64,000 nucleotides of DNA from an uncultured Solirubrobacterales bacterium (GTDB taxonomy: Bacteria > Actinomycetota > Thermoleophilia > Solirubrobacterales > Solirubrobacteraceae). Location: positions 102,146-166,145 of the forward strand of contig CAVSAY010000016.1 in assembly GCA_963725925.1 (NCBI GenBank). The letters are read 5' to 3'. Both the position numbers and the translations under genes were made by a program. The notes beneath the pieces are model-generated. The model was not told where the DNA came from. It made no database searches and was given only the letters and a program-made list of their open reading frames with translations. Positions 419 through 59,714 of the stretch are shown here, piece after piece (the stretch's first letter is position 1; every line of letters begins with the position of its first letter).

Positions 419-634
419 GAACGTCAACGGCCCATTGAAGGACCGGATCAGGCGGGTCCCGGGCCGCGAGAGGGCGCATTTCACGACAACGGGTGCGTTT
501 CGGCGGAGGGGTGTCGCGTTCTGAGCCCTATGGGCCGCAGATCACGACAGGCCTCGGTCGCTGACGATCGATTGTCGCGATATGCGGCCCGGAGTCACCC
601 ATTCATCCCGCTCCTCAATGGGCTGTTGACGTTC
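419..634. repeat. Dispersed nested-palindrome element, copy 1 (MITE/REP-like)
   Basis: Terminal inverted repeats GAACGTCAACGGCCCATTGAAGG ... CCTCAATGGGCTGTTGACGTTC with internal nested stems. Similar copies at 39562 and 59372. Confidence 0.85.
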
Positions 635-654
635 CGCCCGAGCAACCCGGCGAA

Positions 655-36774: not shown

Positions 36775-36811
36775 GCCTGGAGTCTGGCAGGACTGGGGCG
36801 CTAGGATTCGC

Positions 36812-36910
36812 GTCAACGGGAGCCCCACCAGCTTGGGCTGAGAGGGCGGAGACCAGAATCCGCCGACCGTCTGAACCTGAACCGGGTAATGCCGGCGCAG
36901 GGAGGGAAAC
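36812..36910 (+). ncRNA. TPP (thi-box) riboswitch
   Basis: GGGAGC..GGCTGAGAG..GACCG..GAACCTGAACCGGGTAATGCCGGCGCAGGGAG matches the TPP consensus and lies directly upstream of thiO. Confidence 0.95.
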
Positions 36911-36911
36911 A

Positions 36912-38059
36912 TTGCGTGATCGCAGCAGCACATTTGACGTGGCCGTAGTCGGCGGGGGCGTCATCGGCCTGTCCGTCGCCTGGCGCGCCGCTCAACGCGG
37001 CATGCGCGTGATCGTGCTCGAGCGCGCGGAGCCCGGCGGCGGCGCGTCGTGGGTGGCGGCCGGGATGATCGCCCCGATCAGCGAGGCGCGCCCCAAGGAG
37101 CAGTCGCTGCTGCGCCTGTCGCTGGAGAGCGCGCGGGCGTATCCGGAGTTCGTCGCCGAGCTTTCGGCGGCTTCCGGGCGCGACCCGGGCTATCTGGGCT
37201 GCGGCACGCTGGCGGCAGCGCGCGACCGCGACGAGGCCGAGGCACTGGAGCGCGAGCTTGTGATGCGGGTCGGGCTGGGGCTGCCGGTGCGGCGCCTGCG
37301 CCCGAGCGAAGCGCGGCGCCTGGAGCCGGGACTTGCGCCCGCGGTGCGGCTTGCGCTCGACGTCCCCGACGACCACGTGATCGAGCCGCACGCGTTGACC
37401 GGTGCTCTGGCGCAGGCGCTGCTGCGTGCGGGCGGAGAGTTGCGCGCAGGGTGCGAGGTCGCCGAGGTGTGTGTGTCCGACGGCCGGGTCGTGGGTGTTC
37501 GCCTGGCCACGGGGGACCGCATCGAGGCCGATCAGATCGTGATCGCGGCGGGCGTGTGGTCTTCGTCGATCCCCGGAATTCCGCCGGATGCAAGGGTGCC
37601 GCTGCGCCCGGTCAAGGGGCAGACGCTGCGCATGCACGATCCCAGCGGTCCCGGCCTGCTGACGCGCGTGCTGCGGATGAGCCCCGGCTACGTGGTCCCG
37701 CGCGGCGACGGCCGCTACGTTCTCGGAGCGACCATGGAGGAGCGCGGGTTCGACACGACGATCACGGCCGGGGCAATCTTCGAGCAGTTGCGCGACGCGA
37801 TCGAGCTGGTGCCCGGGATCGGCGAATGGGTGATCGACGGGCTCGTGGCCGGACTGCGCCCCGGCACTCCCGACAACGCCCCCGTGCTCGGTCCGGGCGC
37901 GCTCGAGGGACTGCAATGGGCGACGGGTCACTACCGTCACGGGATCTTGCTCGCGCCTGTCACAGCAGATGCGCTCGCGGCCACGCTTGCCGGCGAGGCG
38001 CTCCCCGAGGTCTCGGCGCCGTTCGGGGCGCAACGGTTCGCCGGGGTGGCGGTGGGGGC

Positions 38060-38063: not shown

Positions 38064-39538
<1,475 letters not shown>

Positions 39539-39561: not shown

Positions 39562-39759
39562 GAACGTCAACGGCCCATTGAAGGAGGGGATGGGGCGGGT
39601 CCGGGGTCGCGAGAGGGGCATTTCACGACAACGCGGACGTTTCGGCGGAAGCGTGTCGTGTGAACCACCGCATAGGTGGCTGGACACGGACAGCTTCGGC
39701 CGATCGAGCGACCGATTGTCGCGTTATGCCCCCCTCCATCCCCATCCTCAATGGGCCGT
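39562..39759. repeat. Dispersed nested-palindrome element, copy 2 (right terminus truncated)
   Basis: GAACGTCAACGGCCCATTGAAGG is identical to the copy 1 left end; the right arm CCTCAATGGGCCGT stops before TGACGTTC. Confidence 0.85.
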
Positions 39760-39772
39760 CAAAAAACCACCC

Positions 39773-39884
39773 AGCATTTCCCCCAAATCGAATGCCAGCG
39801 CAAGCCGCCTTTGGGCAATAACCGCGTCCCACGCTGCTTCCGCCCAAAGGCACGGTGAAGCCGGATCGACTTGGGGGAAATGCT
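39773..39884. repeat. Second, unrelated 112-bp palindromic element
   Basis: AGCATTTCCCCCAAATCGA ... TCGACTTGGGGGAAATGCT (18/19) plus inner CCTTTGGGC/GCCCAAAGG. Confidence 0.8.
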
Positions 39885-58624: not shown

Positions 58625-59392
58625 TTGAGCGCGACGAAGCAGAGCGGGACGCGGTCCGGCGAGTCCGGCGAGTGGAGGAAGCCCCCGCCGCGCCGCGTGC
58701 GCGCGATTCGTGACCGGCTGCGACTCGTCTACGGGATCCCTCAGGCCAAGCCGCACGGCCATCCGATCGCCGAGCTGATCCTCACCGTGCTGTCGCAGTC
58801 GACCAACGACCGCAACCGCGACGTCGCCTACCTGGCGCTGCGCGAGCGCTTCCCCGGGGACACCTGGGTTCGCGTTCGCGACGCTCCCGTGGACGAGATC
58901 GAGGAGGCGATCCGCCCCGGCGGGATCTCGAAGGTCAAGTCCGCGCGGATCAAGTCGATCCTGCGCGCGATCAGCGACACCGCGCCCGGCGGTGAGCTGT
59001 CGCTCGACTGGCTTGACGATCTGACCGTGCCCGAAGCGCAGGAGTACCTCACCTCGCTGCCGGGCGTCGGGCGCAAGACCGCCGCCTGCGTGCTGCTGTT
59101 CGCGCTGGGCATGCGCGACGTGCCGGTCGATACGCACGTGTCGCGGGTCGGCACCCGGCTGGGCCTGTTCCGGCCCAAGGCGCCGTTCGAGGAGCTGCAC
59201 GACACCATGCTCGAGATCACGCCGCCCGACGAGGAGCTCGAGTTTCACATGAACCTGCTGCGGCACGGCCGGCGGACGTGTCACGCGCGGCGGCCGAACT
59301 GCTGGGAGTGCGCGCTGCAGCGGATGTGCCCGAGCGCGGCGGAGTTCATGGCGGCGGGGCGCCCTGAGGGTCGAACGTCAAAGACCCATTGA
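58625..59392 (+). CDS. nth: Endonuclease III family DNA glycosylase
   Basis: LSQSTND, HhH LPGVGRKTAACV, PVDTHV, 4Fe-4S CHARRPNCWECALQRMC; start TTG 58625 inferred. Confidence 0.88.
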   Translation: MSATKQSGTRSGESGEWRKPPPRRVRAIRDRLRLVYGIPQAKPHGHPIAELILTVLSQSTNDRNRDVAYLALRERFPGDTWVRVRDAPVDEIEEAIRPGGISKVKSARIKSILRAISDTAPGGELSLDWLDDLTVPEAQEYLTSLPGVGRKTAACVLLFALGMRDVPVDTHVSRVGTRLGLFRPKAPFEELHDTMLEITPPDEELEFHMNLLRHGRRTCHARRPNCWECALQRMCPSAAEFMAAGRPEGRTSKTH

Positions 59393-59626
59393 AGGGCGAG
59401 ATGCGGGCGGGTTCAGGCCCGTAAAAGGGGTGCATAACGCGACAATCGCGACGATTCGGGCGAAGTGTGTCGTGAAACGCGCCCCATAGGGTGCACAGCA
59501 CGACAGGCCTCGGCTCGGAGCGACGCGTTGTCGTGTTATGCACCCTCGAGAGGCCTCCCGGGCTCAGGGACCTCGTCCGGTCGCCGTAACCCCTCATCCT
59601 CTCCCTCAATGGGTCGTTGACGTTCG
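59372..59626. repeat. Dispersed nested-palindrome element, copy 3
   Basis: CGAACGTCAAAGACCCATTGAAGGG ... CCCTCAATGGGTCGTTGACGTTCG; inner GGGTGCATAACGCGACAA / TTGTCGTGTTATGCACCC. Confidence 0.87.
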
Positions 59627-59714
59627 GCCTCGACACCCCCGAGCCCGGGCCGCGAAGTCAAATCTGCTACGCTCCCGCTTAGATTTTTACGACTACTTAG
59701 GAGTAGAAAGACAG

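What the first reader, a model, noticed from the sequence alone, without database searches (positions are those of the whole stretch)
419..634. Family of ~200-255 bp nested-palindrome elements with conserved termini and covarying stems (copies at 419-634, 39562-39759, 59372-59626)
Seen: three non-coding copies share 22-23 bp terminal inverted repeats (GAACGTCAAC/AGG/ACCCATTGAAGG ... CCTCAATGGG..GTTGACGTTC). All have the same orientation and begin within ~25 nt of the stop of a + strand gene. Interiors are diverged but keep a multi-tier fold-back. Outer-inner stem: GGGCGCAT/ATGCGGCCC, GGGGCAT/ATGCCCC, GGGTGCAT/ATGCACCC. Middle stems: ACGACAA/TTGTCG and TGTCGTG/CACGACA. Apical hairpin: GCCC-TAT-GGGC, CCACC-GCATA-GGTGG, GCGCCC-CATA-GGGTGC. 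Both arms change together, the pattern expected when structure rather than sequence is selected. Inference: an unannotated MITE/REP-like mobile element, or a structured 3'-UTR RNA or cruciform. Three copies in 64 kb would imply many genome-wide. An autonomous version might enclose a nuclease or transposase ORF between the same termini.
Basis: partly seen in the sequence, partly recalled or inferred. Interest (0 to 1): 0.8.

Follow-up and report, generated by a model that had tools for sequence, protein, structure and literature searches.

The report
Nested palindromic repeat family, MITE/REP-like
The three look-alike non-coding stretches are real copies of a lineage-restricted family of about 200-300 bp fold-back repeats sitting just behind genes in a soil actinobacterium (Solirubrobacteraceae): an undescribed but ordinary kind of selfish or tolerated repeat, not a demonstrably structured RNA.

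Summary
Three copies (419-634, 39562-39759, 59373-59625) share about 23-32 bp terminal inverted repeats around a 118-nt palindromic core, far beyond chance.

The genome holds about 31-33 such loci. Only three closely related Solirubrobacteraceae genomes out of 346 in the genus carry the termini in many copies.

Orthologous empty sites show the elements are insertions. One splits a gene pair whose stop and start codons overlap in a relative.

The element is a composite. The core is itself a self-contained palindromic repeat with about 19-bp ends and four alternating copies of GCATAACACGACA. It occurs alone, in 39 of 346 genomes, with about 80 to more than 100 copies in two of them. The outer scaffold also occurs alone and with other cores.

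The "covarying stems" claim is mostly not supported. Swapping arms between copies leaves fold energy about unchanged, only 1-2 outer-stem positions covary, and G:T wobbles show no strand bias.

At orthologous sites the cores have been replaced while scaffold and flanks persist.

There is no Rfam match, no Y1/RAYT transposase, no autonomous copy and no canonical terminator tail.

Verdict: a new member of the MITE/REP-BIME kind, with an unknown mobiliser.

The parts
419..634 (.). Copy c1: complete composite element (scaffold termini plus core). It lies between the convergent ddl-like gene (stop at 403-405) and a Ser/Thr kinase gene (stop at 655-657).
   Evidence: The orthologous site in G043 is empty, with 12 bp between the two stops.
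419..450 (+). c1 left terminal inverted repeat (GAACGTCAACGGCCCATTGAAGGACCGGATCA).
   Evidence: information content drops just outside G|AACGTC.
472..589 (.). c1 core: a 118-nt palindromic unit of a rarer sub-type (apex GAGCCCTATGGGCC).
603..634 (-). c1 right terminal inverted repeat.
   Evidence: 612-634, 3 mismatches.
635..654 (.). Degenerate outer module (reverse complement TTCGCCGGGTTGCTCGGGCG) between the right terminus and the kinase stop. A matching GGGTT(T/G)CYCGGGSCCG module lies outside about 8 termini.
   Evidence: inference from sequence comparison.
39562..39759 (.). Copy c2: composite element whose right terminus is cut after GGGCCGT. It lies between a SnoaL-like gene (stop at 39536-39538) and a DJ-1/PfpI gene (start about 39948).
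   Evidence: In G043 the two genes overlap (TGATG) and the whole 413 bp is absent.
39614..39733 (.). c2 core.
39773..39884 (.). A second, unrelated palindrome stacked next to c2, belonging to a separate family.
   Evidence: other copies in G042; partial copy at G000 C13:223588, beside a scaffold-only copy.
59373..59625 (.). Copy c3: long composite element 5 nt after a stop (TGA 59365-59367) and 89 nt before the dnaK start (59715).
   Evidence: G103 has the orthologous scaffold with a different core interior. G043 has a core-only copy at this site.
59428..59545 (.). c3 core (GGGTGCATAACGCGACAA...TTGTCGTGTTATGCACCC).

Best explanation
The three stretches are copies of a non-autonomous, fold-back (MITE/REP-BIME-like) interspersed DNA repeat of a small Solirubrobacteraceae clade.

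SHOWN
- Each copy is a composite of two parts.
  - An outer palindromic scaffold: about 32-bp terminal inverted repeats beginning GAACGTCAACGGCCCATTGA, plus a spacer.
  - Near the scaffold's centre, a 116-118-nt core.
- The core is itself a dispersed palindromic repeat.
  - It has its own about 19-bp inverted ends (G(G/C)GTGCATAACRCGACAA).
  - It carries four alternately oriented copies of the motif GCATAACACGACA.
- Both modules occur alone.
- The core family is wider and more abundant in the genus than the scaffold.
- Copies are insertions relative to empty orthologous sites.
- Copies lie in 3' and intergenic spacers and are enriched between convergent genes.
- At orthologous sites the core is often a different family member while scaffold and flanks are conserved.

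INFERRED
- The composite arose when a core landed in, or recombined into, the centre of a scaffold hairpin. It then multiplied in the common ancestor or lineages of G000, G103 and G108.
- Mobilisation is in trans, by an unidentified protein that recognises the conserved termini and/or the 13-nt motif.
- Core turnover reflects centre-biased ectopic gene conversion: breakage at the tip of a long palindrome, repaired from a paralogous copy.
- Copies persist behind genes because insertions there are harmless. Some may have been co-opted as hairpin barriers or 3'-end stabilisers, but no sequence evidence requires this.
For: FAMILY AND CHANCE
- 5 terminus matches in the window against 0 expected.
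- About 31-33 loci in the genome.

RESTRICTED, PATCHY DISTRIBUTION
- The terminus pattern occurs in 11 of 346 genus genomes. It is multi-copy only in G000 (19 ends), G103 (25) and G108 (7).
- Across 185,579 species representatives, clear element-bearing hits are confined to Solirubrobacteraceae/Solirubrobacterales MAGs.
- About 20 soil-metagenome contigs carry the same small elements.

INSERTION POLYMORPHISM
- G043 is empty at c1 (12-bp spacer) and at c2 (TGATG stop/start overlap).
- G000 is empty at C17:263517-263529, where G103 has 211 bp.

MODULARITY
- Core-only copies occur in G000 (C8, C29, C36, C38).
- Six of the 7 core copies examined in G043 are core-only, with sharp ends.
- Scaffold-only copies occur at G000 C13:223517-223564 and in metagenome locus L091.
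- The same scaffold carries core B or core C.
- The core end motif occurs in 39 of 346 genomes with reversed-pattern controls at 0. With one mismatch allowed it gives 162 hits in G302 and 215 in G299.

CORE TURNOVER
- Flanks are 88-92% identical, while elements are 64-74% identical in 10 of 14 positional orthologs. Third-codon-phase divergence in the flanks is about 19%.
- Cores are reciprocal-best matches in only 3 of 14 pairs, and paralogs reach 80-92% identity.
- A clean A/B core swap sits inside an orthologous scaffold. c3 and C13:187038 show conserved arms with a replaced interior.

CONTEXT
- 13-14 of 33 loci lie between convergent genes, against a 20% background.

NOT AN RNA FAMILY
- There are no Rfam hits.
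Against: - No autonomous partner or transposase was found: none with these termini, and no Y1/RAYT.
- No target-site duplication could be defined. The flanks at empty sites are too diverged, and the terminal CG is itself palindromic.
- The genomes are MAGs of about 80-94% completeness, so a partner could be missing.
- Hairpin stability is retained between positional orthologs much better than under random placement of the same substitutions (mean z -5.5). Copy replacement explains this, but it is also what selection on structure would give.
- Gene conversion versus independent core insertion cannot be separated with these data.
Confidence: 0.65

Rival explanations
1. A lineage-specific, factor-dependent (often bidirectional) transcription terminator or 3'-end stabilising hairpin. 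It would be analogous to the mycobacterial TRIT motif, spread as a repeat but kept by selection for that role.
For: - Copies start 5-25 nt after stop codons.
- 13-14 of 33 loci lie between convergent genes, against a 20% background.
- The hairpins are very stable.
- A subset of termini carries A-runs or T-runs, for example TGAAAAACCCC...GGGCCGTTTTTGA at C36:286588.
- TRIT is a precedent: 147 sequence-conserved palindromes at gene termini in an actinobacterium (PMC3152330).
Against: - Most copies have no U-tract, and the scan finds no terminator-like site in c3.
- Mycobacterial RNA polymerase is reported to need a U-tract (abstract of PMC3993855).
- Six of 33 loci are in divergent or promoter regions. 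c3 lies upstream of dnaK, and c2 split a translationally coupled pair.
- The pattern is absent from 335 of 346 congeners with the same genes.
- There is no strand bias of G:T wobbles.
- Nearness to stops follows from short spacers.
Confidence: 0.15
2. A structured non-coding RNA (3'-UTR element or sRNA) whose fold, not its sequence, is under selection.
For: - Rod-like folds with z about -6.
- Outer-stem position 4 covaries as T-A, G-C and C-G.
- The fold is kept between positional orthologs.
Against: - The arm-swap and own-versus-other-arm tests are null.
- Most variable stem columns do not covary.
- The RNAalifold consensus is -2.4 kcal/mol with 9 pairs.
- Both strands fold equally well, and G:T wobbles are 161 against 191.
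- Presence/absence varies, and the elements carry indels.
- There is no Rfam family. Only far sub-threshold plant miRNA-hairpin hits appear.
Confidence: 0.07
3. A REP/BIME system mobilised by a REP-associated tyrosine transposase (RAYT).
For: - It consists of intergenic, high-copy palindromic units.
- It forms mosaic and tandem combinations with other motifs.
- The termini are conserved in sequence.
Against: - PF01797 (Y1_Tnp) finds nothing in G000, G103, G108, G299, G302, G282, G289, G326 or G241, while it rings in 6 of 14 control genomes.
- The unit is about 116 nt, not 20-40 nt.
- No gene is flanked by the motif in G000.
Confidence: 0.04
4. An array of binding sites for a chromosomal protein (a nucleoid-associated or regulatory protein recognising GCATAACACGACA as two dyads). 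Mobility would be secondary.
For: - The 13-nt motif is the most conserved feature across species, while the spacers and apex differ. This holds between the G000 and G299 variants.
- The ACGACA and TGTCG positions are invariant in 48 copies.
- The motif is essentially confined to the elements.
- Core B has the same four-site layout with a different motif.
Against: - No candidate protein was identified.
- The same conservation is expected for transposase-binding ends.
- Copy number varies from 0 to more than 100 among congeners, which is odd for a housekeeping site.
Confidence: 0.09

Closest known systems
Bacterial MITEs with long inverted repeats (Neisseria Correia elements, enterobacterial ERIC, cyanobacterial Nezha); nested MITE-in-MITE insertions as described in plants. 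Named from my own knowledge.
   Same: - Size of 100-300 bp with no ORF.
- Terminal inverted repeats and a fold-back shape.
- Tens of copies, intergenic, with presence/absence between relatives.
- Sub-families sharing termini but differing inside.
   Different: - No parent IS with these termini was found.
- No target-site duplication could be defined.
- The interior is itself an independent palindromic repeat that is exchanged between loci.
REP / BIME (bacterial interspersed mosaic elements) of Proteobacteria. Named from my own knowledge.
   Same: - Palindromic units combined with other conserved motifs into mosaics and tandem clusters.
- Found in extragenic 3' locations.
- Copy number varies strongly by lineage.
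   Different: - The unit is about 116 nt with four internal motif copies, rather than 20-40 nt.
- No RAYT occurs in nine carrier genomes.
TRIT, the 'Tuberculosis Rho-independent terminator' motif of Mycobacterium (PMC3152330).
   Same: - Found in an actinobacterial lineage and genus-restricted.
- A sequence-conserved palindrome in about 150 copies.
- Tightly associated with stop codons and mostly bidirectional.
- A binding factor has been suspected.
   Different: - There is no sequence relationship.
- Our elements are several times longer, composite, and polymorphic for presence.
- Termination was not tested.

Membership tests
MITE (non-autonomous DNA transposon) | Terminal inverted repeats | tested here: met
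   The scaffold has 23-32 bp inverted repeats. The core has its own inverted ends of about 19 bp.
MITE (non-autonomous DNA transposon) | Small size, no coding capacity, multiple dispersed copies | tested here: met
   Elements are 190-305 bp at about 31-33 loci. They lie in intergenic DNA.
MITE (non-autonomous DNA transposon) | Insertion polymorphism (filled against empty orthologous sites) | tested here: met
   Three empty sites were found.
MITE (non-autonomous DNA transposon) | Target-site duplication | tested here: inconclusive
   Flanks at the empty sites are only 77-93% identical, and the spacers cannot be aligned. The terminal CG cannot be told apart from an extension of the inverted repeat.
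MITE (non-autonomous DNA transposon) | A related autonomous IS with the same termini | tested here: not met
   No terminus pair is more than 400 bp apart in G000, in the 31 GTDB loci or in the 80 metagenome loci. The genomes are incomplete MAGs, so absence is not proven.
REP/BIME with RAYT | A Y1 (HUH) REP-associated transposase in the genome | tested here: not met
   PF01797 gives 0 hits in 9 carrier genomes, and the control genomes ring.
REP/BIME with RAYT | A short (20-40 nt) imperfect palindromic unit | tested here: not met
   The unit is 116-118 nt.
REP/BIME with RAYT | Mosaic or tandem clustering with other conserved motifs | tested here: met
   Examples are C8:31392-31679, C38:49014-49325, C36:207020-207342 and the roughly 300-bp tandem units in G299.
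Any Rfam RNA family | Score at or above the gathering threshold | tested here: not met
   The only gathering-level hit in the window is a TPP riboswitch elsewhere. The permissive search gives only plant miRNA hairpins at 24-32 bits, against gathering scores of 77-137.
Structured RNA in general | Compensatory covariation beyond relatedness, and strand-specific G:U tolerance | tested here: not met
   Only 1-2 outer-stem positions covary, and G:T wobbles are 161 against 191.
Intrinsic terminator | GC-rich stem followed by a U-tract | tested here: not met
   No site was found in c3. Only about 4-5 of 22 full copies have terminal T-runs or A-runs.
TRIT-like conserved terminator motif | Termination activity or 3' ends at the motif | not testable with these tools
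Integron attC | RYYYAAC / GTTRRRY core sites and cassette arrays | tested here: not met
   The termini read CGTCAAC and GTTGACG, which do not fit. The copies are dispersed, not in arrays (reading of the sequence).

The most novel reading that the evidence does not exclude
The 116-nt core is a new kind of self-propagating hairpin element of Solirubrobacteraceae, reaching about 100 or more copies per genome.
- It has neither a RAYT nor a recognisable parent IS.
- It would be recognised through four alternating copies of GCATAACACGACA by an unknown protein.
- It would preferentially enter or replace the apex of other palindromes, by hairpin-targeted insertion or centre-biased conversion.
- Nested palindromes would therefore be built stepwise and their centres shuffled between loci.
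Probability: 0.15. Interest if true: 0.7.

Novelty: new member of a known kind. Interest (0 to 1): 0.4.

Why it matters
- It gives a repeat library entry for a poorly known, uncultured soil actinobacterial lineage. These elements break MAG assemblies: contigs of G103 end inside them.
- The elements mark recent genome change and separate formerly coupled genes.
- The replacement of the palindrome centre at conserved sites is a natural data set on how bacteria tolerate and repair long palindromes.
- If a dedicated binding or mobilising protein exists, it would be a new one, since RAYT is excluded.

Tried and rejected
1. Rfam, at gathering and permissive thresholds: nothing relevant.
2. RAYT/Y1 transposase in nine carrier genomes: none.
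3. Search for an autonomous copy gave none.
   - Terminus pairs with up to 5 mismatches in G000.
   - The core motif outside the elements.
   - The GTDB-representative scan.
   - The metagenome scan.
4. Copy-specific covariation of arms: null.
5. Simple inversion (flip-flop) of the core interior as the cause of ortholog divergence: not supported. Direct and inverted identities are about equal in 10 of 14 pairs.
6. attC-like core sites: the termini do not fit.
7. Target-site duplication: not definable.
8. An outward promoter or canonical terminator in c3: none by consensus scan.
9. Literature search for Solirubrobacter repeats: nothing.
11. Earlier notes by sequence: none.
12. My ad hoc gene caller covers only 72% of the genome, so the context counts are approximate. 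c1 was misclassified and corrected by direct reading and Pfam.
13. I did not build a covariance model or run R-scape. The covariation tests are my own scripts on MAFFT alignments.

Full report
1. THE OBSERVATION

The terminus GAACGTCAACGGCCCATTGAAGG occurs five times in the window with up to 3 mismatches, against 0 in all 100 dinucleotide shuffles.
- It appears as both ends of c1 (419-441 and 612-634).
- It appears as both ends of c3 (59373-59395 and 59603-59625).
- It appears as the left end of c2 (39562-39584). c2's right end stops after GGGCCGT.

Each copy begins just after a + strand stop codon:
- c1: TAG 403-405, a 13-nt gap.
- c2: TAG 39536-39538, a 23-nt gap.
- c3: TGA 59365-59367, a 5-nt gap.

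All copies fold into long rods. c1 folded as DNA gives -62.6 kcal/mol, z -5.8.

Pfam identifies the neighbours:
- c1 lies between a D-Ala-D-Ala ligase C-terminus and a convergent Ser/Thr kinase.
- c2 lies between a SnoaL-like gene and a DJ-1/PfpI gene.
- c3 lies 89 nt upstream of dnaK.

2. THE FAMILY AND ITS HOST

The window is C16:102146-166145 of a 6.41-Mb, 68.7% G+C, 41-contig assembly. Iterated nhmmer finds about 31 loci, about 22 of them full length at 190-305 bp. A few degenerate or partial loci were found later.

A scan of one genome per GTDB species with the terminus pattern gave real, element-bearing hits only in Solirubrobacteraceae/Solirubrobacterales MAGs: SMAG_U1038, SMAG_U4199 and MFD05841. 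Their flanks are 80-96% identical to this genome.

Within the GTDB genus, 11 of 346 genomes have the pattern.
- Only G000 (19 ends), G103 = SMAG_U1038 (25) and G108 = SMAG_U4199 (7) have many.
- About 20 soil-metagenome contigs carry the same small elements.

3. THE COPIES ARE INSERTIONS

In G043 (MFD05841):
- The c1 site has only 12 bp between the two convergent stop codons.
- At the c2 site the two genes overlap (TGATG). The whole 413 bp holding c2 and a second palindrome is missing.

Conversely, G000 has 13 bp at C17:263517-263529 where G103 has a 211-bp element.

No target-site duplication can be read. The spacers at these sites cannot be aligned, and the terminal CG is itself palindromic.

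4. ANATOMY: A COMPOSITE OF TWO PALINDROMIC REPEATS

The alignment of 22 copies shows four parts:
- Termini of about 32 bp: GAACGTCAACGGCCCATTGAAGGAGGGGATGG.
- A roughly 23-bp spacer whose mirror image is often deleted on the right.
- A 118-nt core.
- In about 8 ends, an outer GGGGTTTCTCGGGGCC module that abuts the stop codon.

The core holds four copies of GC(A/T)TAACACGACA in alternating orientation. The ACGACA and TGTCG positions are invariant in 48 copies.

The modules occur separately.
- Core-only copies lie at C8:31394, C29:563697, C36:207023 and C38:49020.
- In G043, 6 of the 7 core copies examined are core-only. They have sharp ends (GCGTGCATAACGCGACAAA...TTTGTCGYGTTATGCACGC) and unrelated flanks, and several start at or within a few nt of a stop codon.
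- Scaffold-only hairpins lie at C13:223517-223564 and in metagenome locus L091.
- The same scaffold carries unrelated cores. Core B at C17:281392 and C36:155371 has the same four-site layout with a GACCCAA motif. Core C is at C14:151637 and C36:207185.

The core end motif TGCATAACRCGACAA is present in 39 of 346 genus genomes, with reversed-pattern controls at 0.
- With one mismatch allowed it gives 162 hits in G302 and 215 in G299. That corresponds to roughly 80 to more than 100 cores.
- In G299 the core sits in other, roughly 300-bp, tandemly repeated units.

The core family is therefore older and wider than the scaffold.

5. IS STRUCTURE SELECTED?

I tested the covariation claim in four ways on 48 non-identical cores from G000 and relatives.
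- Left arm against the reverse complement of the right arm: identity is 0.617 within copies and 0.613 between copies. The rank of a copy's own partner is spread evenly.
- Chimeric folds: own arms give -65.0 kcal/mol against -63.2 +/- 10.9 for swapped arms, mean z -0.23.
- Per-column shuffles: only outer-stem columns 2-3 (T-A, G-C, C-G; z 4.9) and two isolated columns exceed chance. About ten other variable stem columns do not.
- G:T wobbles: 161 on one strand and 191 on the other, so there is no strand bias.

RNAalifold on the MAFFT alignment keeps only 9 pairs at -2.4 kcal/mol.

Stems are conserved as sequence, and the variation lies mainly in internal loops.

6. ORTHOLOGOUS SITES CARRY NON-ORTHOLOGOUS CORES

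For 14 G000/G103 positional orthologs:
- Flanks are 86-92% identical.
- Elements are only 64-74% identical in 10 pairs, with many indels. Three pairs are 81-94% identical.
- Third-codon-phase divergence in the flanks is about 19%. Most elements therefore differ more than near-neutral sites do.
- Fold energy is nevertheless retained, with mean z -5.5 against random placement of the same substitutions.

The explanation is replacement rather than compensatory drift.
- Cores are reciprocal-best matches in only 3 of 14 pairs.
- In the other pairs the positional ortholog ranks between 5th and 29th among the G103 cores compared.
- Paralogs in the same genome, or cores at other G103 sites, are 80-92% identical.

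Direct alignments show conserved scaffolds with copy-specific features around a swapped interior:
- Core A in G103 against core B in G000 at C17:281392.
- c3 and C13:187038.
- Core C against core A at C14:151637.

A simple inversion does not account for this.

I infer ectopic gene conversion centred on the palindrome tip, or core transposition into scaffold centres. The data do not separate the two.

7. CONTEXT AND FUNCTION

With a rough gene caller, 13-14 of 33 loci lie between convergent genes (background 20%) and 6 lie between divergent genes.

Nearness to stops is largely forced by the tiny original spacers.

There is no canonical terminator tail or sigma-70-like promoter in c3. Only a few copies have terminal A-runs or T-runs.

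The nearest functional analogue is the mycobacterial TRIT motif, with 147 palindromic copies at gene termini (PMC3152330). Its autonomous terminator activity is doubted, because mycobacterial RNA polymerase is reported to need a U-tract (PMC3993855 abstract).

8. WHAT IT IS NOT

- It has no Rfam family.
- No Y1/RAYT transposase occurs in nine carrier genomes, while controls ring.
- No terminus or core-motif pair encloses an ORF.
- The termini do not fit attC core sites.
- No literature on such repeats in this lineage was found.

9. VERDICT

This is a real, previously undescribed interspersed fold-back repeat family of the MITE/REP-BIME kind.
- It is composite: one palindromic repeat nested in another.
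- It is lineage-restricted and polymorphic for presence.
- Its mobiliser is unknown.
- There is little evidence for selection on RNA structure.
- Its most interesting property is the turnover of the palindrome centre at conserved sites.

Noticed in passing
window 36806-36920 (+): A TPP riboswitch (RF00059) at 63.2 bits. It is the only Rfam gathering-level hit in the window.
   Followed up: no
window 39773-39884: A second, unrelated 112-nt palindrome (AGCATTTCCCCCAAATCG...CGACTTGGGGGAAATGCT) stacked beside c2. It is absent, together with c2, from G043. Other copies exist in G042 (C371:2885-2998, C686, C356). A partial copy lies at G000 C13:223588-223641, right beside the scaffold-only hairpin.
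   Followed up: partly
L157, L159, L160 (G299:C11:87100-88100, C12:436300-437300, C12:507000-507900): In G299 the core variant sits inside roughly 300-330-bp units repeated in tandem. The units have conserved asymmetric flanks (GAGAGTGTCACGGGAAAC on one side, GGTTTTTGGGCGGG...CCCTTCCC on the other). This is a different composite built on the same core.
   Followed up: partly
G000 C34:21014-24318 and C13:468373-473022: Contig C34 duplicates the end of contig C13, including one element copy with identical flanks. This is probably assembly redundancy, so the two 'copies' count as one.
   Followed up: no
window 59661-59695: An A+T-rich stretch (AAATCTGCTACGCTCCCGCTTAGATTTTTACGAC) upstream of dnaK is conserved in G103 and G043 although everything around it differs. 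It may be the dnaK promoter or operator region.
   Followed up: no
G000 C17:281392-281632 and C36:155371-155614: Core B is unrelated in sequence to core A. It has the same layout: four alternately oriented copies of a short motif (GACCCAA / TTGGGTC) in a roughly 140-nt palindrome. Weak partial copies lie outside scaffolds at C14:45360, C25:328402 and C29:535939.
   Followed up: partly
G103 (G041) contigs C218, C234, C252, C213: Several contigs of the related MAG end inside these elements. The repeat family therefore fragments short-read assemblies of this clade.
   Followed up: no
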